Assembly (NCBI GenBank): GCA_963762585.1
Contig: CAVXLF010000023.1
Location: forward strand, 85,035 to 149,034
Length of the DNA stretch: 64,000 nt
Source: an uncultured Verrucomicrobiae bacterium
Lineage (GTDB): Bacteria > Verrucomicrobiota > Verrucomicrobiia > Limisphaerales > UBA11358
Direction of reading: 5' to 3'
The translations under genes and the position numbers were made by a program. This document shows, in pieces, positions 5,746 through 59,930 of this stretch (position 1 is its first letter; each line of letters begins with the position of its first letter). The notes beneath the pieces were generated by a model. That model was not told the DNA's origin. It made no database searches and worked only from the letters and a program-made list of their open reading frames with translations.

Positions 5746-5761
5746 TCCAATTCTTTTGAGA

Positions 5762-5811
5762 TAGGGACGCCGCGCCGCGGCGTCCGGTCAGCGCCGCGCG
5801 CTGACCCTACC
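5762..5811. repeat. 50-nt double-hairpin GC-rich REP-like element (TAGGG...CCCTACC) filling the atpF-atpH intercistronic gap
   Basis: TAGGGACGCCGCGCCGCGGCGTCCGGTCAGCGCCGCGCGCTGACCCTACC: two 9-bp stems with 3-nt loops; 45/50 identical to 21897-21946. Confidence 0.85.
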
Positions 5812-21142: not shown

Positions 21143-21520
21143 TCAACCTGCCAACACCGCCGTGGCCGCCGCGTAGTTTTGGGTGTGGCTCAGGCTGATG
21201 AACAATTGTTTCGCGCGGCGTGACGCGAACAATGTCTCTCCCTTGCCGTGCAGCACCACGAACGGTTCGCCGGATTCCTTGCGCCGGATTTCCATGTCCT
21301 GCCAGCCCAGGGCTGCGCCGATGCCGGTGCCGAACGCCTTGGAAATCGCCTCCTTGGCCGCGAACCGTGCCGCGATGAACGGCGCCGGGTTTTTGTGCGA
21401 TTGGCAGTAGGCAATTTCATCCGGCAGCAAAATCCGGCTCACAAACCGCTCGCCGAACTTTTCGTAGGATGCGCCGATGCGCGTCACCTCGATGATGTCT
21501 ATGCCCGTGCCCAAAATCAT
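21143..21520 (-). CDS. acpS: Holo-ACP synthase (4'-phosphopantetheinyl transferase)
   Basis: 125 aa; GTGIDIIEV..., RFAAKEAISKAFGTG, ISLSHT motifs. Confidence 0.9.
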   Translation of the reverse strand: MILGTGIDIIEVTRIGASYEKFGERFVSRILLPDEIAYCQSHKNPAPFIAARFAAKEAISKAFGTGIGAALGWQDMEIRRKESGEPFVVLHGKGETLFASRRAKQLFISLSHTQNYAAATAVLAG

Positions 21521-21524
21521 TTAT

Positions 21525-21552
21525 GATTTACGATTTACGATTTACGATTGAC
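21525..21552. repeat. Tandem heptamer array GATTTAC x4
   Basis: GATTTAC GATTTAC GATTTAC GATTGAC, 5 nt upstream of acpS ATG. Confidence 0.8.
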
Positions 21553-21592
21553 GCGCAAGCAAACTCGGCTGGGCAAAGCGGCTGCGGTAAAA

Positions 21593-21663: not shown

Positions 21664-22449
21664 TTACCCGCGACAATTTTTCATCAAGCGCAGCATCTCC
21701 TTGACCGCGGTTTTGAGGCCAGTCATGACCGCCCGGCTGACGATGCTGTGGCCGATGTTCAATTCCACCAGGTGCGGCACGCGATGGAGTAGCGGCAGGT
21801 TTTCGTAATTCAATCCGTGTCCCGCATTCACCCGCAGGCCGAGCGCGTGCGCCTGCTCCGCGGCGGCGATGAGGCGGTCGAGTTCTGATAAATCGGTAGG
21901 GACGGCGCGCTGCGCCGTCCGGTCATCGCCGCGCGATGACCCTACCTTTTTATAAAATTCCTCCGCAAACGCACCGGTGTGCAATTCGACAAACTGGCTT
22001 CCGACCCGCGCGCTGGCCTCAATCTGCTCTTTATCCGGTGCAATGAACAAACTCACCTCGATGCCGGCATCGTTCATTTTCTGGCGTGTTTTGGTCAGAG
22101 CTTTTTCACTCGCGGCCACGTCCAGTCCGCCCTCGGTGGTCACTTCCGACCGGCGTTCGGGCACGAGGCAGATGATATCCGGTTTTAATTTCAGCGCGAT
22201 GGCGATGATGTCCGGCAGGTTGGCCATTTCGAGGTTGAGCCGGGTTTTGACGGTTTTCCGCAATTTCCAGATATCGCGGTCCTGGATGTGCCGGCGGTCT
22301 TCGCGCAGGTGCGCGGTGATGCCGTGCGCGCCGGCGGCCTCGCAAATCCGCGCGGCCTCGACCGGGTCCGGTTCACCAAATCCACGGTTGCGATAACGCG
22401 CTTCGCGGATGGTCGCGACGTGGTCAATATTGACACCCAGTTTCAACAT
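21664..22449 (-). CDS. pdxJ: Pyridoxine 5'-phosphate synthase (carries in-frame repeat insertion)
   Basis: ATG 22449: [60 protein letters not shown]. Confidence 0.92.
21897..21946. repeat. 50-nt double-hairpin REP-like element inside pdxJ coding sequence
   Basis: TAGGGACGGCGCGCTGCGCCGTCCGGTCATCGCCGCGCGATGACCCTACC; translated on the minus strand as [18 protein letters not shown]. Confidence 0.85.
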
Positions 22450-27165: not shown

Positions 27166-27840
27166 GTGCTCATCGCATTCAACAAGCCGTTCGGCGTGCT
27201 GTCGCAGTTCACCGGGGATGGCCCGGCGAGTCGCACGCTGGCGGAATTCAATTTTTCCAAAGACGTTTACCCCATCGGCCGGCTGGACGCGGATTCCGAG
27301 GGGCTGTTGCTGTTGAGTGACGAGCCGGAGTGGAACGAACGCCTGCTGCATCCCCGTCAGGCGCATCAACGCGAGTATTGGGCGCAGGTGGAGCGCATCC
27401 CGGCGCCGGAAGCGTTGAAGAAATTGGAACGCGGGGTTTTGATTCAAGGCCGGAAAACCTTGCCGTGCCGCGCGTGGCTTCTGGAGCCGCAACCGGAGGT
27501 GGCTGCGACGCCTCGTCGCAGCAGCGTGGCAGCGACGCCCCCGTCGCAACCTGTTCCCGTCGTCGGGGCGACGACGACACCTTTCGGCGACGGGGCGTCG
27601 CCGCCACAAATTCCACCACGGAACCCTCCGATTCGTTTCCGCAAAAGCGTGCCCGATTGCTGGATCGGCCTGGAATTGATTGAAGGCAAAAATCGTCAGG
27701 TGCGGCGCATGACCGCCGCCATCGGCCATCCGACGTTGCGGCTGATTCGCGTTCGCATCGGCGGATTGAAACTTGGCACACTTGCTGCAGGCGAATGGAA
27801 GGTGCTCTCGATGGAAGAACGCCGGTCCCTGGCAAATTGA
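27166..27840 (+). CDS. rluE: Pseudouridine synthase, RsuA/RluE family (carries in-frame repeat insertion)
   Basis: GTG start; FNKPFGVLSQF, YPIGRLDADSEGLLLL (catalytic Asp), PRNPPIRFRKSVP, EGKNRQVRRMTAAIGHPTLRLIR. Confidence 0.85.
   Translation: MLIAFNKPFGVLSQFTGDGPASRTLAEFNFSKDVYPIGRLDADSEGLLLLSDEPEWNERLLHPRQAHQREYWAQVERIPAPEALKKLERGVLIQGRKTLPCRAWLLEPQPEVAATPRRSSVAATPPSQPVPVVGATTTPFGDGASPPQIPPRNPPIRFRKSVPDCWIGLELIEGKNRQVRRMTAAIGHPTLRLIRVRIGGLKLGTLAAGEWKVLSMEERRSLAN
27502..27602. repeat. Four consecutive CGACG/CGTCG-core hairpins inside the rluE-like ORF
   Basis: GCTGCGACG-CCT-CGTCGCAGC (27502-27522); GCGACG-CCCC-CGTCGC; CGTCGTCG-GGG-CGACGACG (27559-27577); GGCGACG-GGG-CGTCGCC (27586-27602). 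Confidence 0.75.
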
Positions 27841-28980: not shown

Positions 28981-30003
28981 ATGATTGCTGTTGCTGACCA
29001 TTCCGCACCGGTCGTGGACGACCTGCAAGTCCGCCCGGCCATGGCCCCTTCGCGGTTCGAGCCGCTGGCCCGGGAGATTTTCGCGCTCAAAAAGCAGCTC
29101 AACGCCGTCATTCTCGCCCACAATTATCAGGTGCCGGAAATCCAGGACGTGGCGGATTACGTCGGCGACTCGCTCGGCCTGTCGCAACAGGCGGCCAAAA
29201 CGAGCGCGGATGTGATTGTGTTCTGCGGCGTGCATTTCATGGCTGAGACGGCGAAGATTTTGAACCCGAACAAGATTGTCGTGCTACCGGACAAGAACGC
29301 GGGCTGTTCGCTCGAGGAAAGTTGTCCCGCGGACAAACTGGCCGCGCTCCAGGCGACGAATCCCAATTTCTGGACCATCGCCTACATCAATTGCAGCGCG
29401 GCGGTAAAGGCCCTGACCGACGTGATCTGCACCAGCGGCAACGCGGTGAAAATCGTTCAGGCCGCGCCCAGGGACAAGGACATCCTGTTTGTGCCGGACG
29501 AAAACCTGGGTGCGTGGGTGATGGAACAGACCGGCCGCCCGATGACGTTGTGGCAGGGCAATTGTTACGCGCACGTCGAGTTCCGGCGCGAACAGGTGCT
29601 GAAATTGCGCGCGAAATATCCCGACGCCAAGGTTGTGGTGCATCCGGAAAGTTTGCGCGAAGTGCGTGATCTGGCCGACGCGGTTTGCTCGACGGAGCGA
29701 ATGATTTCCTACTGCAAATCGGACCCGGCCAAACGATTCGTCGTGGTGACGGAATCGGGCATAATCCACCGGATGCAGAAGGAATGTCCGGGCAAGGAAT
29801 TTCTATGCGCGCCGGTGTTCGACGTGATGCGGCTGCCGTCGGATCATTGCCGTTGCAGTGAGTGCAAGTACATGAAGCTGAACACGCTGGAAAAGGTGCG
29901 CGACTGCATGAAACAGCTCGCGCCGCGCGTTGAATTACCGGCGGAAATCTTGAAGCGCGCCCGGTTGCCCATTGAGCGGATGCTGGAAATTTCAGCGCGG
30001 TAG
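28981..30003 (+). CDS. nadA: Quinolinate synthase
   Basis: 340 aa; ILAHNYQVPEIQDVAD.VGDS, FCGVHFMAETAKIL, AYINCSA, VVHPES, TESGI; start could be the later Met at 29041. Confidence 0.93.
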   Translation: MIAVADHSAPVVDDLQVRPAMAPSRFEPLAREIFALKKQLNAVILAHNYQVPEIQDVADYVGDSLGLSQQAAKTSADVIVFCGVHFMAETAKILNPNKIVVLPDKNAGCSLEESCPADKLAALQATNPNFWTIAYINCSAAVKALTDVICTSGNAVKIVQAAPRDKDILFVPDENLGAWVMEQTGRPMTLWQGNCYAHVEFRREQVLKLRAKYPDAKVVVHPESLREVRDLADAVCSTERMISYCKSDPAKRFVVVTESGIIHRMQKECPGKEFLCAPVFDVMRLPSDHCRCSECKYMKLNTLEKVRDCMKQLAPRVELPAEILKRARLPIERMLEISAR

Positions 30004-30023
30004 GGCGGCGCTGCCGCGCCGCC
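30000..30023. repeat. GTAGGG-headed hairpin supplying the nadA stop codon
   Basis: GTAGGGCGGCGCTGCCGCGCCGCC: GGCGGCGC-TGCC-GCGCCGCC stem; TAG at 30001-30003 is the nadA stop. Confidence 0.7.
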
Positions 30024-30105
30024 GAGGCCGGGCAGCAGCCTGGCCCTGCCAAAAGTTGGAGACAGGCGCGACGCCGGTTCTACAGCGTAGGTTTGGCCCG
30101 CTGAC

Positions 30106-37129: not shown

Positions 37130-39793
<2,664 letters not shown>

Positions 39794-39947
39794 TTATCGC
39801 CAGACCGGATATGTTGTGGTGCGTAAAAAGCCTCCAAAACCACTTTTCCCGGGCGGAGGAAATGCTTGGAACCAAGGTGGGCGGCCACCTGGTTGGGCAG
39901 CAAAACTTCCGCTTTTCAGTCGCGATGCGGCGTCATATTCTCGGCTG

Positions 39948-42224
39948 GTGAGTCTTCACCGCGACCAACTTTTCGCGCCACTGAAACAATTCTTCGGCTT
40001 CAGTTCCTTCCGTCCGTTGCAGGAGGAAATCATTCGCGACGCGCTCGCGGGCAAGGACGTTTTCGCCGTGCTGCCCACCGGCGGCGGCAAATCGCTCTGC
40101 TTCCAGCTTCCCGCGCTCGTGCAACCCGGACTCACCGTTGTCGTCTCGCCGCTCATCGCGCTGATGAAGGACCAGGTGGACGCGCTACAGGCGGCGGGCG
40201 TGGCGGCGACATTTTTGAATTCATCGCTCGCCGCCGGCGAATCGCGTCCGCGCCTGCGCGGCTTGCACCAGGGCGAGTTCCGGTTGCTCTACGTCGCGCC
40301 GGAGCGGTTAATGTTGTCCGGTTTTCTTGACGACCTGAAGAAATGGAACGTGAACCTGTTCGCGATTGACGAGGCGCATTGCATCAGCGAGTGGGGACAC
40401 GATTTCCGCCCGGAATACCGGCAATTGCAGACGATGCGCGGAATTTTTCCAACCGTGCCGATGATGGCGCTCACGGCCACGGCCACCGAACGCGTGCGCG
40501 GCGACATTGTCCGGCAGCTGCATCTGAAGGATCCCGCGTGCTACGTCGCCAGTTTCAACCGCCCGAACCTGACTTACCGCGTCGCGGCGAAGTCAGGCGC
40601 TTATGACCAGATTCTTTCGTACGTGCAGGCGCGGCCGAACGAAAGCGGCATCATTTACGTGCAGGCGCGCAAAACGGCGGACAGCCTGGCGGCCAAACTT
40701 TCCGCCGACGGCGTGAAGGCGCTGCCGTATCACGCGGGCATGACCCCCGGTGACCGGACGAAAAGCCAGGAGGCATTTCTTCGCGACGAGGCGCGCGTGA
40801 TTTGCGCGACCATCGCCTTTGGCATGGGCATCAACAAGCCGAACGTGCGTTTCGTGATTCACTACGACCTGCCGAAGAACATCGAAGGCTATTATCAGGA
40901 AACGGGCCGCGCCGGCCGTGACGGTCTGCCCGGCGAATGTCTGCTGTTGTTCAGCCCCGGCGACCGGGTCAAGCAGATGCGGTTCATTGACGAAAAACCA
41001 AGTCCGCAGGAGCGCGAAATCGCCCGCGCCCAACTGGAACAGATGATTCACTACGCCGAGATCGCCACCTGCCGCCGTGAATTTCTGCTGGGATATTTCG
41101 GGGAGAAATTTAATCCAAATGAGGTTGTCGGACAAGGTGGGGCGCGTCACTCCGTGCGCGCCGACTTTGCAACATTGGACAACGGCGCGCACGGAGTGAC
41201 GCGCCCGACCGAACCCGTGAATTGTGCCGGCTGCGACAACTGCCTCTCGCCGCGCGCGACCTGGGACGGCACGCTGGCGGCGCAAAAATTTCTTTCGTGT
41301 GTCTATCGCATCCGTGAGAAAAGCGGTTTCGGCGTCGGCATTCAGCACGTGGTCGAGGTGCTCTGCGGTGCGGAAACGGAAAAAGTCCGCAAGTTCGGCC
41401 ACCACACACTTTCGACCTACAACATTGGCGACGGACATGCGCGCGCCGAGTGGAGCGCGATTGGACGTGAACTGGTGCGGCTCGGTTTGCTGTTTCAAAA
41501 CGCGGAGAAGTTCAACATCGTCGAGCTGACCGACGCCGGTCACACGGCGCTGAAATCGCGGCAGAAAATCACGTTGACCAAACCGGTCGCTCCGACCGAA
41601 CCGGCGAAGCATCGCGCCGGCGAAATTGCCTGTGACGAGGCGTTGTTCGAGAAATTGCGCGCGCTGCGGAAACAGCTTGCCGACGCGCGCGCCGTGCCGC
41701 CTTACATTATTTTCTCCGACGTGTCGCTGCGGCAGATGGCGCGGTTTTATCCCGCGAACGAAAAGGATTTTTCGCGCATCAGCGGCGTGGGTGAAAGGAA
41801 GCTGCGCGAATTCGGCGAAGCTTTCCTGGGTGAAATTGCGGCGCATGTGCAGACGAACCCGCGCCAGGTTTTTGCGGATGATTTCCCGGCGGATGGAATG
41901 CCGTCCGCGCCGGTGCCGCGCCGGTCACGGCTGACCGACAGCGTGCGCGAGACGCTGCATTTTTTCCAGCAAGGCCGGGCGGTTTCCGAAATTGCAAAAA
42001 TTCGCGGCTTCAAAGACAGCACGATTTACAGTCATCTTGAAGAAGCCATGCTCGCGGGCGAATCGGTTGATGTGCATTCATTGGTTTCAGCCGAAGCCAG
42101 GCGCGACATCGCCGCAGCCTTCGTCCGGCACGGTTTCGGCAACCTCACCGGCGTGGTCGAATCGCTCGGCGGGAAATACGGTTACGGCGAATGCCGCGTC
42201 GTCCGCGCCGCGTTGCAAAGGTAG
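39948..42224 (+). CDS. recQ: ATP-dependent DNA helicase RecQ (helicase-RQC-HRDC plus C-terminal HTH-like tail)
   Basis: [91 protein letters not shown], CxxCDNC, HRDC ([15 protein letters not shown]). No in-frame ATG; GTG 39948 proposed. The track ORF start 39540 overlaps gyrB. Confidence 0.92.
41136..41210. mobile_element. REPIN (inverted REP doublet, 28+19+28 nt) inserted in frame in recQ
   Basis: GGTGGGGCGCGTCACTCCGTGCGCGCCG (41136-41163) and CGGCGCGCACGGAGTGACGCGCCCGACC (41183-41210); each is 27/28 identical to the arms flanking the RAYT gene at 59.3-59.9 kb. Confidence 0.85.
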
Positions 42225-42268
42225 GGACGCCGCGCTGCGGCGTCACCGCCCGCGAAATAGCGGGCGGA
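42221..42268. repeat. GTAGGG-headed hairpin pair supplying the recQ stop codon
   Basis: GTAGGGACGCCGC-GCT-GCGGCGTC then CCGCCCGC-GAAATA-GCGGGCGG; TAG at 42222-42224 is the recQ stop. Confidence 0.75.
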
Positions 42269-42378
42269 ACGTGTGTCGTACACGATTTATTGCGCCGCTG
42301 CGGCGCCGCGCTCCATCCCTGCCGCATTTGAATCCAAATCAACTCGCTTTTTGGAGCGGTGAACCTTATTTTCACCAA

Positions 42379-45234
<2,856 letters not shown>

Positions 45235-45342
45235 ACCGCAGAGACGCAGAGGTGGGGTTGGCGCGCTGCGCCGACCGCGCCGCGTGCAGCGGCGCAAGCG
45301 AGATGGATTGTGACTGAGTGACGCGAGAGGAGCGTCCGGTTC

Positions 45343-45387
45343 CGGCCCTGAACGGGCCGGAGGTCATCGCAGCGCGATGACCCTACC
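45343..45387. repeat. Hairpin pair ending in CCCTACC tail
   Basis: CCGGCCC-TGAAC-GGGCCGG then GGTCATCGC-AGC-GCGATGACCCTACC; the second stem is identical to hairpin 2 of the pdxJ element. Confidence 0.7.
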
Positions 45388-48841: not shown

Positions 48842-48935
48842 AACATCCAACATCCAACATCCAACATCCAATTCCCAATGCCGGCGGTGCAGGCATCATT
48901 GGATGTTCGGCGTTCGATGTTGGATGTTGGATGTT
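48842..48935. repeat. Inverted pair of heptamer arrays (AACATCC xN ... GGATGTT xN)
   Basis: AACATCC x4 perfect plus 2 degenerate (48842-48883); GGATGTT-type x5, 3 perfect (48901-48935); the arms are reverse complements. Confidence 0.85.
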
Positions 48936-59293: not shown

Positions 59294-59930
59294 GGTAGGG
59301 CGCGTCACTCCGTGCGCGCCGTCGTTGTTCGTGCGGCGGGCAGGGGACTGCCCGCCCTACCCAAACGTGGGTGACGGTCGGTTATTCGGGCGATAGACCC
59401 ATGCCCAGTCTTCCGCGCGCTCGCACAATCCTTTACGGACAGGATTCATCAGAATGTAGCTGGTCTTCTCCGCCAATTCATTATGATCGCGCAGACGGTG
59501 ATCGAAGAAATCGCGTTGCCAATGCACATCGTGTTTTAAAGCCACATATTTCTTCCAATTTTTCATCACCGTTTCAATTCCTGGTTCGCGCGGGAACGCG
59601 AGGAGGGCATGCAAATGATCCGGCATGAGCAGGCACAGCCGACAATGCCAGATAAGTTTCTCATGGTTGTATTTCATCGCCGCCAACACAGCATCGCCGG
59701 TTCCGGCCTGGCATAAGTGATTTCTTCCCGGCGGCATGCATTTGATCGTGATGAAGAACCAACTTCCCTCAGCCACCCACTGCGGAATTGTGTGCGGCAG
59801 CTTTTTGCGGACAGGCAAGTCCATTAAGTGAAACGCAACCGAGGCCAACCGTGAAAGTTGGGCTCCGTAAGTCGTCTATGCGCCTTTAGTATTTTCGAAC
59901 AACGGCGCGCACGGAGTGACGCGCCCTACC
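59294..59930 (-). mobile_element. RAYT unit: tyrosine transposase gene bracketed by perfect 28-bp inverted REPs
   Basis: GGTAGGGCGCGTCACTCCGTGCGCGCCG at 59294-59321 and its exact reverse complement at 59903-59930. An additional GTAGGG-headed hairpin (59335-59362, minus orientation) supplies the RAYT stop. Confidence 0.85.
59357..59824 (-). CDS. REP-associated tyrosine transposase (IS200/IS605 Y1 superfamily)
   Basis: GSWFFITIKC, LLMPDHLHALL (HUH), WQRDFFDHRLRD, YILMNPVRKGL (catalytic Tyr), collinear with E. coli-type RAYT. ATG 59824 preferred over TTG 59848. Confidence 0.85.
   Translation of the reverse strand: MDLPVRKKLPHTIPQWVAEGSWFFITIKCMPPGRNHLCQAGTGDAVLAAMKYNHEKLIWHCRLCLLMPDHLHALLAFPREPGIETVMKNWKKYVALKHDVHWQRDFFDHRLRDHNELAEKTSYILMNPVRKGLCERAEDWAWVYRPNNRPSPTFG

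What the first reader, a model, noticed from the sequence alone, without database searches (positions are those of the whole stretch)
21897..21946. Double-hairpin repeat element embedded in frame in pdxJ
TAGGGACGGCGC-GCT-GCGCCGTCC GGTCATCGC-CGC-GCGATGACCCTACC lies within the pdxJ ORF and is translated (minus strand) as [18 protein letters not shown]. The segment between the conserved HTG and LGL.VNAGHGL blocks is 43 aa here, versus 27 aa in E. coli PdxJ as I recall it. The excess of 16-17 aa matches the ~50-nt element. An almost identical element is intergenic at 5762-5811, so this is a repeat that landed in a gene, not native pdxJ sequence.
Basis: partly seen in the sequence, partly recalled or inferred. 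Interest (0 to 1): 0.75.

Follow-up and report, generated by a model that had tools for sequence, protein, structure and literature searches.

The report
Mobile hairpin repeat translated inside pdxJ
A 52-base pair of DNA hairpins from a mobile repeat family (REP elements, copied by a dedicated transposase) sits in frame inside the vitamin-B6 gene pdxJ and is translated as a 17-residue surface loop; this kind of event is already known, but here related species carry different repeat families at the same spot.

Summary
Window 21895-21946 is a 52-nt element made of two 9-bp/3-nt-loop hairpins closed by GGTAG/CTACC. It lies in frame in pdxJ (minus strand, 21664-22449) and adds 16 aa relative to E. 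coli PdxJ. A 2nd copy lies in the atpF-atpH spacer (5760-5811); its stem differences are compensatory.

It is a tail-to-tail dimer of two GTAG-headed REP units. Related metagenome contigs show REP-associated tyrosine transposase (RAYT) genes flanked by these same units. The window encodes a RAYT of another clade (59357-59824), flanked by its own REP type.

The insert is not strain-specific. A 99.6%-identical strain and species with 83-86% identical PdxJ carry it. More distant Verrucomicrobiota have an empty 45-aa segment. Other close relatives hold unrelated palindromic repeats in the same loop.

The dimer occurs at least 121 times in metagenomes, in about 61-68 contexts. More than half are in frame in housekeeping genes (RibD, PanC, GlmS, HemA, MiaA, LigA, FolP, RluE and others). 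In this window recQ and rluE also carry in-frame REP elements.

Intragenic GTAG REPs in Verrucomicrobia and in-frame Rickettsia palindromic elements are published. This is a new member of a known kind. The unexplained extras are site reuse and conservation above the synonymous rate.

The parts
21895..21920 (+). REP-b unit of the pdxJ element: GGTAG head, then GGACGGCGC-GCT-GCGCCGTCC hairpin
21921..21946 (-). REP-a unit of the pdxJ element, read on the minus strand: GGTAG head, then GGTCATCGC-GCG-GCGATGACC hairpin. Its tail abuts the tail of REP-b with no spacer (tail-to-tail dimer).
21664..22449 (-). pdxJ coding sequence (261 aa plus stop). The dimer encodes residues V169-T185.
5760..5811 (.). 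Second full a/b dimer, intergenic within the ATP synthase operon (atpF-atpH spacer). Its head is degenerate on one side (GATAGGG).
42220..42246 (+). Single REP-b-like unit just after recQ, followed by another hairpin. The TAG of its GGTAGGG head (42222-42224) is the recQ stop codon.
45251..45387 (.). Composite intergenic cluster (gcvP side): REP-b-like unit 45251-45277 (GGTGGGG head), inner hairpins, and REP-a unit 45362-45387 on the minus strand
29999..30050 (.). Related GTAG-headed two-hairpin element just after nadA. The TAG of its head (30001-30003) is the nadA stop codon. Its fold z-score is weak (-1.6).
59357..59824 (-). RAYT (REP-associated tyrosine transposase) gene with an HUH motif (DHLHALL) and a Tyr motif (YILMNPVRKGL)
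59294..59361 (.). REP units downstream of the RAYT: GGTAGGGCGCGTCACTCCGTGCGCGCC (59294-59326) and an inverted GGTAGGGCGGGCAG unit (59335-59360)
59898..59930 (-). REP unit upstream of the RAYT. It is 97% complementary to 59294-59326, so the gene is bracketed by inverted REPs.
   Evidence: (I3)
41136..41210 (.). 75-nt REPIN of the RAYT-flanking REP type, in frame inside recQ within the Zn-finger loop
27498..27608 (.). 111-nt cluster of four hairpins bounded by GGTGG..CCACA, in frame inside the rluE-like gene (27166..27840 +)

Best explanation
The element is a non-autonomous mobile REP element. It is a tail-to-tail heterodimer of two different GTAG-headed hairpin units: REP-a (GGTAGGGTCATCGC-NNN-GCGATGACC) and REP-b (GGTAGGGACGGCGC-NNN-GCGCCGTCC). 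The family is dispersed in Limisphaerales (Verrucomicrobiota). It is most likely copied in trans by a RAYT, a Y1/HUH single-strand DNA transposase that recognises the GTAG head plus hairpin. One copy entered the loop after strand beta-6 of the PdxJ TIM barrel. The dimer has only one frame without a stop codon in each orientation (GTA-GGG-...), and the net addition is a multiple of three, so the surviving copy is translated as [17 protein letters not shown]. This is a hydrophilic segment predicted to be disordered, and the enzyme tolerates it. It is best read as a passenger rather than a functional part of PdxJ. Shown here: the repeat family, hairpins kept by compensatory changes, empty ancestral sites, an intact host gene, RAYT genes flanked by these exact units in related contigs, and an A-rich flank preference. 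Inferred: that a RAYT mobilises the dimer, that the protein is active, and the reason for the element's slow divergence.
For: Repeat and structure: there are two copies in the window against 0 expected, and the folds have z of -5 to -6. Across 9 variant copies 96.6% of cells pair. Four pairs show changes on both sides (11 cells). No shuffle of 500 reaches the observed score, and slid controls give at most 1 such cell. REP identity: the units have a GTAG head and a 9-bp stem, and single units and mixed clusters occur in the window. RAYT link: the L167 RAYT (NF047646, 93.5 bits against a cut-off of 80) is followed after about 30 nt by a full a/b dimer and preceded by a partial REP-a. The L173 RAYT (93.8 bits) is bracketed by arrays of REP-b-like and REP-a-like units. 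The window's own RAYT (86.4 bits; PDB 4er8 at E 6e-6) is bracketed by inverted REPs of another type. Insertion: the segment is 45 aa in about 31 more distant species and 60 aa here. Dispersal: at least 121 copies in about 61-68 contexts. Seventy copies have a spanning ORF with at least 40 aa on both sides. Pfam confirms the hosts RibD, a class I/II aminotransferase, PanC, GlmS, HemA, MiaA, LigA, PabB/TrpE, a SpoU methylase and FolP. Frame filter: one open frame of three per orientation, and all intragenic copies read VGSSR.. or VGTAR... Tolerance: the PdxJ profile is matched end to end, and all residues I recall as catalytic in E. coli PdxJ are invariant. The AF2 model has pLDDT 87 overall, with residues 174-179 below 50 and no secondary structure from 170 to 187. 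Passenger status: sister species carry unrelated peptides, internally deleted versions (L004, L009) or an A/B chimera (L014) at the same place. Target preference: A at -1 in 40 of 68 contexts and A at +1 in 39 of 68, in DNA of 59% G+C. Precedent: PMC3733652.
Against: No RAYT of the L167/L173 clade is in the window; the local RAYT is only 42-45% identical to it and has a different REP type, so the cognate enzyme is not shown for this genome. Transposition of REPs by RAYTs has not, to my knowledge, been demonstrated in vivo for any system. The element is far more conserved than a neutral passenger should be: 92-98% nt identity between species whose pdxJ third codon positions are 64-75% identical. 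The peptide is 85.6% identical among 58 proteins, against 56% for the adjoining loop residues. Some insertions of other families at the rluE and pdxJ sites look as if they duplicated 7-9 nt of target, which Y1/HUH transposition should not do. PdxJ activity with the insert was not tested.
Confidence: 0.8

Rival explanations
1. The hairpins were retained because they act in cis on the pdxJ-acpS transcript or on the DNA, for example as an mRNA stabiliser, a processing or pause site, or a protein-binding site. On this view the nucleotide sequence in pdxJ is under direct selection.
For: The element evolves more slowly than synonymous sites of the same gene: third codon positions are 94-100% identical inside it and 64-75% outside. 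Variation is confined to the loops. Stems are kept by compensatory changes. pdxJ copies of different species differ by 1-3 nt, whereas the atp-operon copy of the same genome differs by 7 of 52. REPs are reported to stabilise upstream mRNA (background in PMC3733652).
Against: The same near-invariant master sequence occurs in about 61-68 unrelated contexts, in both orientations, so the constraint belongs to the family and not to pdxJ. Close relatives replace it with unrelated palindromes, heptamer repeats or internally deleted stumps. Rfam finds no known RNA family. No T-run follows the hairpins in the sense direction.
Confidence: 0.1
2. The 17-residue peptide has been exapted: it gives PdxJ, and the other host enzymes, a useful loop such as an interaction or regulatory motif.
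For: The peptide is as conserved as the enzyme core: 85.6% against 86.3% among 58 proteins, and 56% for the neighbouring loop residues. The same peptide appears in many enzymes.
Against: Conservation extends to synonymous positions, so it operates at the nucleotide level. The antisense frame gives a different peptide ([17 protein letters not shown]) in 16 of the 70 intragenic copies. Sister species carry unrelated sequences or 7-aa deletions at the site. The model predicts a disordered coil. The most variable residue (C/R/G) corresponds to a hairpin loop base.
Confidence: 0.04
3. The dimer is a repeat that landed in pdxJ, but it spreads by a route other than RAYT. Candidates are homologous or illegitimate recombination and gene conversion between repeat copies, or a DDE-type transposase acting on it as a MITE. 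The RAYT association would then be coincidental or serve another role.
For: There is an A/B chimera in pdxJ of L014 and composite or adjacent elements at rluE (L024, L033, L037). Two metagenome contigs join different host genes exactly at the element (L143, L148). Other families show possible 7-9 nt target duplications. Arms of other REP families lie within 45 nt of 5 of 121 type-A copies, against 0.4% of control positions. The literature describes RAYTs as single-copy, vertically inherited genes whose activity on REPINs is inferred (10.1101/2021.07.10.451892).
Against: RAYT genes bracketed by exactly these units are the defining signature of REP-RAYT systems. There is no clear target duplication at type-A junctions, only an A|A preference. 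The strict-hairpin adjacency test is not significant: 6.2% against 3.7%. No DDE transposase with matching ends was seen.
Confidence: 0.15
4. The extra segment is native: a lineage-specific PdxJ loop expansion from which the intergenic copies derive, or an assembly artefact.
For: All 41 crown-clade sequences examined have some insert at this loop.
Against: Outgroup species have a 45-aa segment with an unrelated native loop. The inserts are members of dispersed families found in dozens of genes and next to RAYTs. Independent assemblies from several projects agree.
Confidence: 0.02

Closest known systems
GTAG-tagged REPs and their intragenic copies, especially in Opitutus terrae (Verrucomicrobia); Di Nocera, De Gregorio & Rocco 2013, PMC3733652
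   Same: A short hairpin with a GTAG (sometimes GTGG) head. Tail-to-tail and head-to-head dimers with spacers of 0-2 bp. Several families per genome. The TAG of the head supplies stop codons to neighbouring ORFs. REP dimers lie inside known genes, encode about 20-30 aa, and are frequent in DNA repair and RNA-modification genes. RAYT association is present. All of these features are seen here.
   Different: The host order (Limisphaerales) and the stem sequences differ; I did not compare them with the paper's families 17-20. More than half of the copies of this one dimer are intragenic. The same loops are reused by different families across species, and the element is conserved above the synonymous rate. 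I did not find these last points in the passages I read.
REPIN-RAYT systems (Bertels & Rainey 2011, PMC3116915; 10.1101/2021.07.10.451892) and E. coli TnpA-REP (PDB 4er8)
   Same: Two inverted REPs behave as one unit. A master sequence stays constant across strains and species. A RAYT gene is flanked by its own REPs. The window's RAYT matches NF047646 and 4er8.
   Different: REPINs are described as residing almost exclusively in extragenic space, whereas this family is not excluded from genes. A REPIN's two arms pair with each other into one long hairpin. Here the two units are different and each folds on its own, with only the 5-bp heads pairing.
Rickettsia palindromic elements (RPE; Ogata et al. 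2000, cited from memory and via PMC3733652)
   Same: Palindromic repeats inserted in frame in many housekeeping genes that stay functional. The added peptides lie in tolerated surface positions.
   Different: RPE-1 elements are longer (about 100-150 bp) and AT-rich (from memory). RPE-4 and RPE-6 are CGTC-tagged and lack a dedicated transposase according to PMC3733652. The hosts here are free-living, GC-rich soil and peat bacteria, not reduced intracellular genomes.
BIMEs of E. coli and double-hairpin elements (DHE) of Allomyces mitochondrial DNA (both recalled from memory, not tested)
   Same: Mosaic clusters of different hairpin units in alternating orientation (window 45251-45387 and 27498-27608). 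Small two-hairpin mobile elements that can lie inside genes.
   Different: BIMEs are extragenic. DHEs are mitochondrial, have no GTAG head and have no RAYT.

Membership tests
GTAG-type REP / REP-RAYT system | Short (20-40 nt) imperfect palindrome that folds as a hairpin in single-stranded nucleic acid | tested here: met
   Two 26-nt units, each with a 9-bp stem and a 3-nt loop; z = -5.2 and -6.2
GTAG-type REP / REP-RAYT system | Conserved GTAG (or GTGG) tetranucleotide at one end of the hairpin | tested here: met
   A GGTAGGG head on both units. Heads are conserved in the 29 variants found, with GTGG, GCAG and ATAG as rare variants.
GTAG-type REP / REP-RAYT system | Many dispersed copies in the genome | tested here: inconclusive
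   Only 64 kb of this genome is available. It holds 2 full dimers plus 3 single or partial a/b-like units.
GTAG-type REP / REP-RAYT system | A RAYT gene (Y1/HUH, NF047646) flanked by REPs of the same type | tested here: met
   Met in related contigs L167 and L173 for the a/b units. In the window it is met only for another REP type. Whether this genome has the cognate RAYT cannot be tested from the window.
GTAG-type REP / REP-RAYT system | Extragenic location | tested here: not met
   This copy and at least 70 of 121 others lie inside ORFs. Published exceptions exist for GTAG REPs (PMC3733652), so this is a descriptive feature and not a mechanistic one.
GTAG-type REP / REP-RAYT system | Mobilisation by the RAYT (binding and cleavage at the GTAG hairpin) | not testable with these tools
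   Inferred from E. coli TnpA-REP biochemistry (from memory) and from gene-repeat linkage
REPIN sensu Bertels & Rainey | Two inverted copies of the same REP whose arms pair into a single long hairpin | tested here: not met
   The units differ (TCATCGC against ACGGCGC stems) and fold separately; only the GGTAG/CTACC heads pair. The recQ element 41136-41210 does meet this feature.
Rickettsia palindromic elements | In-frame insertion in genes that remain intact | tested here: met
Rickettsia palindromic elements | Sequence family (RPE-1..; CGTC tag for RPE-4/6) | tested here: not met
   The head is GTAG, not CGTC. No sequence comparison with RPEs was run.
MITE derived from a DDE insertion sequence | Terminal inverted repeats plus a fixed-length target-site duplication | tested here: not met
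   The 7-nt heads are inverted repeats, but no duplication is seen at type-A junctions, only A at -1 and A at +1. Possible duplications for other families remain unresolved.
PdxJ (pyridoxine 5'-phosphate synthase) | Full-length match to PF03740 and to solved PdxJ structures, with the conserved motifs intact | tested here: met
   E 1.7e-94 over profile 1-234/234. 1ho1 at E 9e-76. Invariant N7, D9, H10, H47, R49, E74, T104, T105, E155, H211, G233 and H234. A TIM-barrel model with pLDDT 87.

The most novel reading that the evidence does not exclude
In Limisphaerales, REP-RAYT systems may use particular loops of housekeeping genes (PdxJ beta6-alpha6, RluE EPQPE|IPPR, Zn-finger loops of RecQ and LigA) as reusable landing pads. 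Resident elements would be serially replaced or re-copied by whichever REP family is active. That would explain three things together: why different families occupy the same site in sister species, why no crown-clade pdxJ is empty, and why each resident copy stays closer to its family master sequence than synonymous divergence allows. It would amount to site-preferential, ongoing REP transposition inside coding DNA, which generates cassette-like peptide variation in essential enzymes.
Probability: 0.25. Interest if true: 0.7.

Novelty: new member of a known kind. Interest (0 to 1): 0.45.

Why it matters
How REPs and REPINs move is still inferred and not demonstrated. Intergenic insertion sites are hard to align between species. 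Copies inside conserved genes come with alignable empty and filled alleles: pdxJ and rluE here, and a dozen more hosts in metagenomes. Targets (A|A flanks), junctions, replacements and decay can therefore be read at nucleotide resolution.

The data also show that a RAYT-linked REP family in free-living, GC-rich soil and peat bacteria is not excluded from genes, contrary to the usual description of these elements as extragenic. Such elements can also inflate or confuse annotation. They produce repeated peptides across unrelated proteins, stop codons supplied by repeat heads, and assembly chimeras at repeats.

For PdxJ itself the finding is ordinary: a tolerated surface-loop insertion.

Tried and rejected
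- **Rfam:** a scan of the whole window at gathering thresholds found nothing.
- **PdxJ tree:** a neighbour-joining tree with the loop masked separates empty outgroups from an always-occupied crown clade. Within the crown clade the insert types are interspersed. The tree rests on about 240 residues and is not reliable enough to count gains and replacements, so I do not use it for that.
- **REPs attracting REPs:** a strict test (a perfect inverted repeat of at least 9 bp in 60-nt flanks, or flanks complementary to each other) gave 6.2% against 3.7% in controls, which is not convincing. A motif-based test gave 5 of 121 against 0.4%, but the five copies come from only two or three distinct sites.
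- **Target-site duplication at type-A junctions:** none was found. At rluE the type-A element replaces the native IPP codons, a net gain of 42 nt.
- **Within-genome homogenisation as the cause of conservation:** not supported by the one paralogue available. It differs from the pdxJ copy by 7 of 52 nt, while orthologous pdxJ copies in other species differ by 1-3 nt.
- **A second insertion elsewhere in pdxJ:** L024, L025, L029 and L037 have matches of about 1000 nt. The extra length is a duplicated 3' end of the gene downstream of the stop codon, not a second intragenic insert.
- **Window RAYT as the cognate enzyme:** rejected. Its flanking REPs are of the recQ type.
- **Not run:** a fold search of the model, because it was not needed, and a peptide search of the 5.8-billion-protein database, because the metagenome scan already gave the census.
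Full report
**1. The observation**

With its flanking bases the element spans 21895-21946: GGTAG-GGACGGCGC-GCT-GCGCCGTCC-GGTCATCGC-CGC-GCGATGACC-CTACC. As single-stranded DNA either strand folds into a three-way structure. A 5-bp closing stem formed by the GGTAG/CTACC ends carries two 9-bp hairpins with 3-nt loops. The energies are -24.4 and -24.8 kcal/mol, with z = -5.2 and -6.2, and no shuffle of 200 folds as well. A pattern that fixes the structure but leaves the variable positions free finds two matches in the 64-kb window, against 0.00 expected.

The surrounding ORF on the minus strand is PdxJ. Pfam PF03740 matches end to end at E 1.7e-94, and E. coli PdxJ structures match at E 9e-76. The likely start is the ATG at 22449. 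The element is read as [17 protein letters not shown], residues 169-185. The alignment to E. coli shows a net excess of 16 residues at exactly this place.

The second copy (5760-5811) lies in the 69-nt spacer between atpF and atpH of the ATP synthase operon.

**2. What the element is**

Each half is a unit of the form GGTAG + 9-bp stem + 3-nt loop. I call the two units REP-b (GGTAGGGACGGCGC..GCGCCGTCC, plus strand) and REP-a (GGTAGGGTCATCGC..GCGATGACC, minus strand). Their tails abut with no spacer and the GTAG heads face outwards.

Both units also occur on their own or in other combinations in the window:
- 42220-42246 is a REP-b-like unit followed by another hairpin.
- 45251-45387 is a REP-b-like unit, inner hairpins and a REP-a unit.
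- 29999-30050 is a related two-hairpin element.

A GTAG head on a short hairpin is the signature of REP elements associated with RAYT transposases.

The window does encode a RAYT at 59357-59824(-). It matches NCBIfam NF047646 (REP-associated tyrosine transposase) at 86.4 bits against a cut-off of 80 and E. coli TnpA-REP (4er8) at E 6e-6. The HUH and catalytic-Tyr motifs are visible in its translation. It is bracketed by inverted REPs that are 97% complementary (59294-59326 and 59898-59930). Those REPs are of a different type (GGTAGGGCGCGTCACTCCGTGCGCGCC).

The link between RAYTs and the pdxJ-type units comes from related DNA. In metagenome contig L167 a RAYT (93.5 bits) is followed after about 30 nt by a complete a/b dimer and preceded by a partial REP-a. 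In L173 a RAYT (93.8 bits) is bracketed by arrays of REP-b-like and REP-a-like units. These two RAYTs are 42-45% identical to the window's RAYT.

Across nine variant copies, 96.6% of stem cells pair. Four pairs show changes on both sides. No shuffle of 500 reaches the observed covariation, and slid controls give essentially none. Rfam has no match.

**3. Is it foreign to pdxJ, and how old is it?**

I retrieved pdxJ loci from 80 species-level genomes, all Verrucomicrobiota and mostly Limisphaerales MAGs from soil and peat. The segment from [IV]ELHTG to NAGHGL is 44-46 aa in 31 of them, which are the more distant ones. They carry an ordinary loop such as AEHFHDAAKREVELQRL, the same length as in E. 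coli. The extra segment is therefore an insertion.

It is not strain-specific:
- A metagenome contig 99.64% identical to the window over 7.2 kb carries it (L120).
- Four other species with PdxJ 83-86% identical carry it at the same position and in the same codon phase (L001, L002, L003, L005).
- 58 of the 120 closest proteins in the large database carry it.

**4. The same loop holds other repeats in other species**

All 41 crown-clade sequences have some insert in this loop, but the inserts belong to several unrelated families. Named by their peptides, these include:
- WGEATDEP..AREDARPT
- WGESLSSP..GSTESRPT
- ..SLLTSAAT/SAPT
- GDLSPLSKAPTRRRSP

At the DNA level nearly all are strong palindromes, most with GTAG or GTGG heads and CTAC or CCAC tails. 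Each family also occurs elsewhere in these genomes. The heads sit in three different codon phases (GTA-GGG, G-GTG-GGG read as CGG-TGG-GGC, and xGT-AGC). The families therefore cannot be diverged versions of a single insertion.

Signs of turnover are present:
- internally deleted type-A stumps (L004, L009);
- an A/B chimera (L014);
- heptamer tandem repeats in eight species.

The same pattern holds for a second gene, rluE. One site (EPQPE|IPPR) is empty in six species. In the others it carries type A (giving the same peptide, [17 protein letters not shown]), types B, C and D, the RAYT-flanking type, composites, or, in this window, a 111-nt four-hairpin cluster.

A rough calculation of my own suggests that random insertion cannot account for this. 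With a few hundred REPs per genome and at least 0.5 Mb of permissive DNA, about 0.01 hits are expected per 15-nt window per lineage. I therefore infer a site preference, but its basis is not established. Tests for attraction by resident REPs were weak.

**5. Spread of the type-A dimer**

These hold 121 copies in about 61-68 distinct flank contexts. Seventy copies have a spanning ORF with at least 40 aa on each side, and 38 have at least 100 aa on each side.

Pfam confirms these hosts: RibD, a class I/II aminotransferase, PanC, GlmS, HemA, MiaA, LigA (inside its Zn finger), PabB/TrpE, a SpoU methylase and FolP. By eye I also recognise GlnS, LysS, RluE and PdxJ.

Every intragenic copy is read as [17 protein letters not shown] (54 copies) or, in the other orientation, [17 protein letters not shown] (16 copies). 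The other two frames of each orientation contain TAG or TGA. That is the filter which makes the surviving copies in-frame.

The flanks show a preference. A occupies position -1 in 40 of 68 contexts and position +1 in 39 of 68, in DNA of 59% G+C. A taste for A-rich patches (Lys, Glu and Asn codons) would bias insertions toward hydrophilic surface loops. That link is my inference.

**6. Effect on PdxJ**

The ORF is intact. The residues I recall as catalytic or phosphate-binding in E. coli PdxJ are N9, D11, H12, H45, R47, E72, T102, T103, E153, H193, G215 and H216. Their counterparts are invariant in the alignment.

The AlphaFold2 model is a confident TIM barrel (pLDDT 87.2, pTM 0.85). The insert is a coil between helix 159-169 and helix 188-202. 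The 171-180 block has mean pLDDT 50, and residues 174-179 are below 50. I conclude that the insert is a tolerated surface loop. Activity was not tested.

**7. What remains odd**

The pdxJ copy is 92-98% identical between species whose pdxJ is 81-88% identical overall. Third codon positions are 94-100% identical inside the element and 64-75% outside it. Among 58 proteins the peptide is 85.6% identical, against 56% for the nine adjoining loop residues. Differences fall in the hairpin loops.

Copies in other genes and genomes are equally close to the same master sequence. The constraint is therefore family-wide and is not specific to pdxJ. Candidate causes are:
- purifying selection on the hairpin or on a RAYT recognition site;
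- re-copying from a master copy;
- recent replacement at reusable sites.

The REPIN literature reports master sequences that stay unchanged across a species (10.1101/2021.07.10.451892).

**8. Comparison with what is known**

Di Nocera et al. 2013 (PMC3733652) describe:
- GTAG-tagged REPs in many phyla, including the PVC group;
- dimers with 1-2 bp spacers in Opitutus terrae, and GTGG heads there;
- stop codons supplied by the TAG of the head;
- an excess of such inserts in DNA repair and RNA-modification genes.

The same paper recalls that Rickettsia palindromic elements are inserted in frame in functional genes. All of this matches the present case, including recQ, rluE and LigA as hosts and the nadA and recQ stop codons in this window.

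The element is therefore a new member of a known kind. It is not a REPIN in the strict sense, because its two units do not pair with each other. It also does not share the CGTC tag of RPE-4 and RPE-6.

The aspects I did not find in the passages I read are:
- reuse of identical loops by different families;
- the high intragenic share of a single dimer;
- conservation beyond the synonymous rate.

**9. Verdict**

The best explanation is a RAYT-linked GTAG REP dimer carried as an in-frame passenger in a PdxJ surface loop (confidence about 0.8).

Interest is moderate (0.45). The kind is published. The site reuse and the alignable empty and filled alleles could make the REP insertion mechanism tractable.

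Noticed in passing
window 41136-41210 (within ORF 39540..42224 +): recQ (E. coli RecQ 1oyw, E 4e-155) carries an in-frame 75-nt REPIN of the type that flanks the window's RAYT. It lies in the Zn-finger loop between YFGE and CxxCDxC, where this protein has 39 aa and E. coli has 5. The true recQ start codon is uncertain.
   Followed up: partly
window 27498-27608 (within 27166..27840 +): The rluE-like pseudouridine synthase (2oml, E 1e-41) carries an in-frame 111-nt cluster of four hairpins bounded by GGTGG..CCACA. In other species the same site is empty or holds types A, B, C or D, the RAYT-type REP, or composite elements.
   Followed up: yes
window 30001-30003 and 42222-42224; L167 9222-9224; L173 3745-3747: The stop codons of nadA, recQ and two RAYT genes are the TAG inside a GGTAGGG REP head. 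The repeats therefore abut or trim the 3' ends of these genes, as reported for GTAG REPs in PMC3733652.
   Followed up: partly
window 21520-21555, 48842-48935, and inside gcvP (ORF 41992..45234 +, peptide [14 protein letters not shown]): Tandem heptamer repeats occur at three places: ATTTACG x4 in the pdxJ-acpS spacer, AACATCC x4 facing its inverse as a hairpin, and an apparently in-frame heptamer-derived peptide repeat in gcvP. Similar heptamer arrays (GAAATCC, GAAAGCG) occupy the pdxJ loop in L030, L031, L035, L036, L041, L061, L073 and L075, and the loop of the type-D REPIN in L021.
   Followed up: no
L024, L025, L029, L037 (about 200 nt downstream of the pdxJ stop): The last ~20 codons of pdxJ are duplicated downstream of the stop codon, on the far side of another inserted repeat. 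This looks like a long target duplication or a repaired 3'-end insertion.
   Followed up: partly
L143 and L148 (metagenome contigs): The left half of one host gene (PdxJ; PanC) is joined to the right half of another host gene exactly at the type-A element. These are either assembly chimeras at the repeat or real recombination between copies.
   Followed up: no
L006, L012 (rluE site); L011, L017, L029 (pdxJ site): Some insertions of other REP families are flanked by imperfect direct repeats of 5-9 nt, for example GGAAATCC..GGAATTCC and ATCCCCGC..CTCCCGCC. These resemble target-site duplications, which HUH/Y1 transposition is not expected to produce.
   Followed up: partly
L093 (metagenome), LigA ORF: NAD-dependent DNA ligase carries the type-A dimer (antisense frame) next to another repeat-derived peptide inside its C4 zinc finger. 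This parallels the Zn-finger insertion in recQ of this window.
   Followed up: partly
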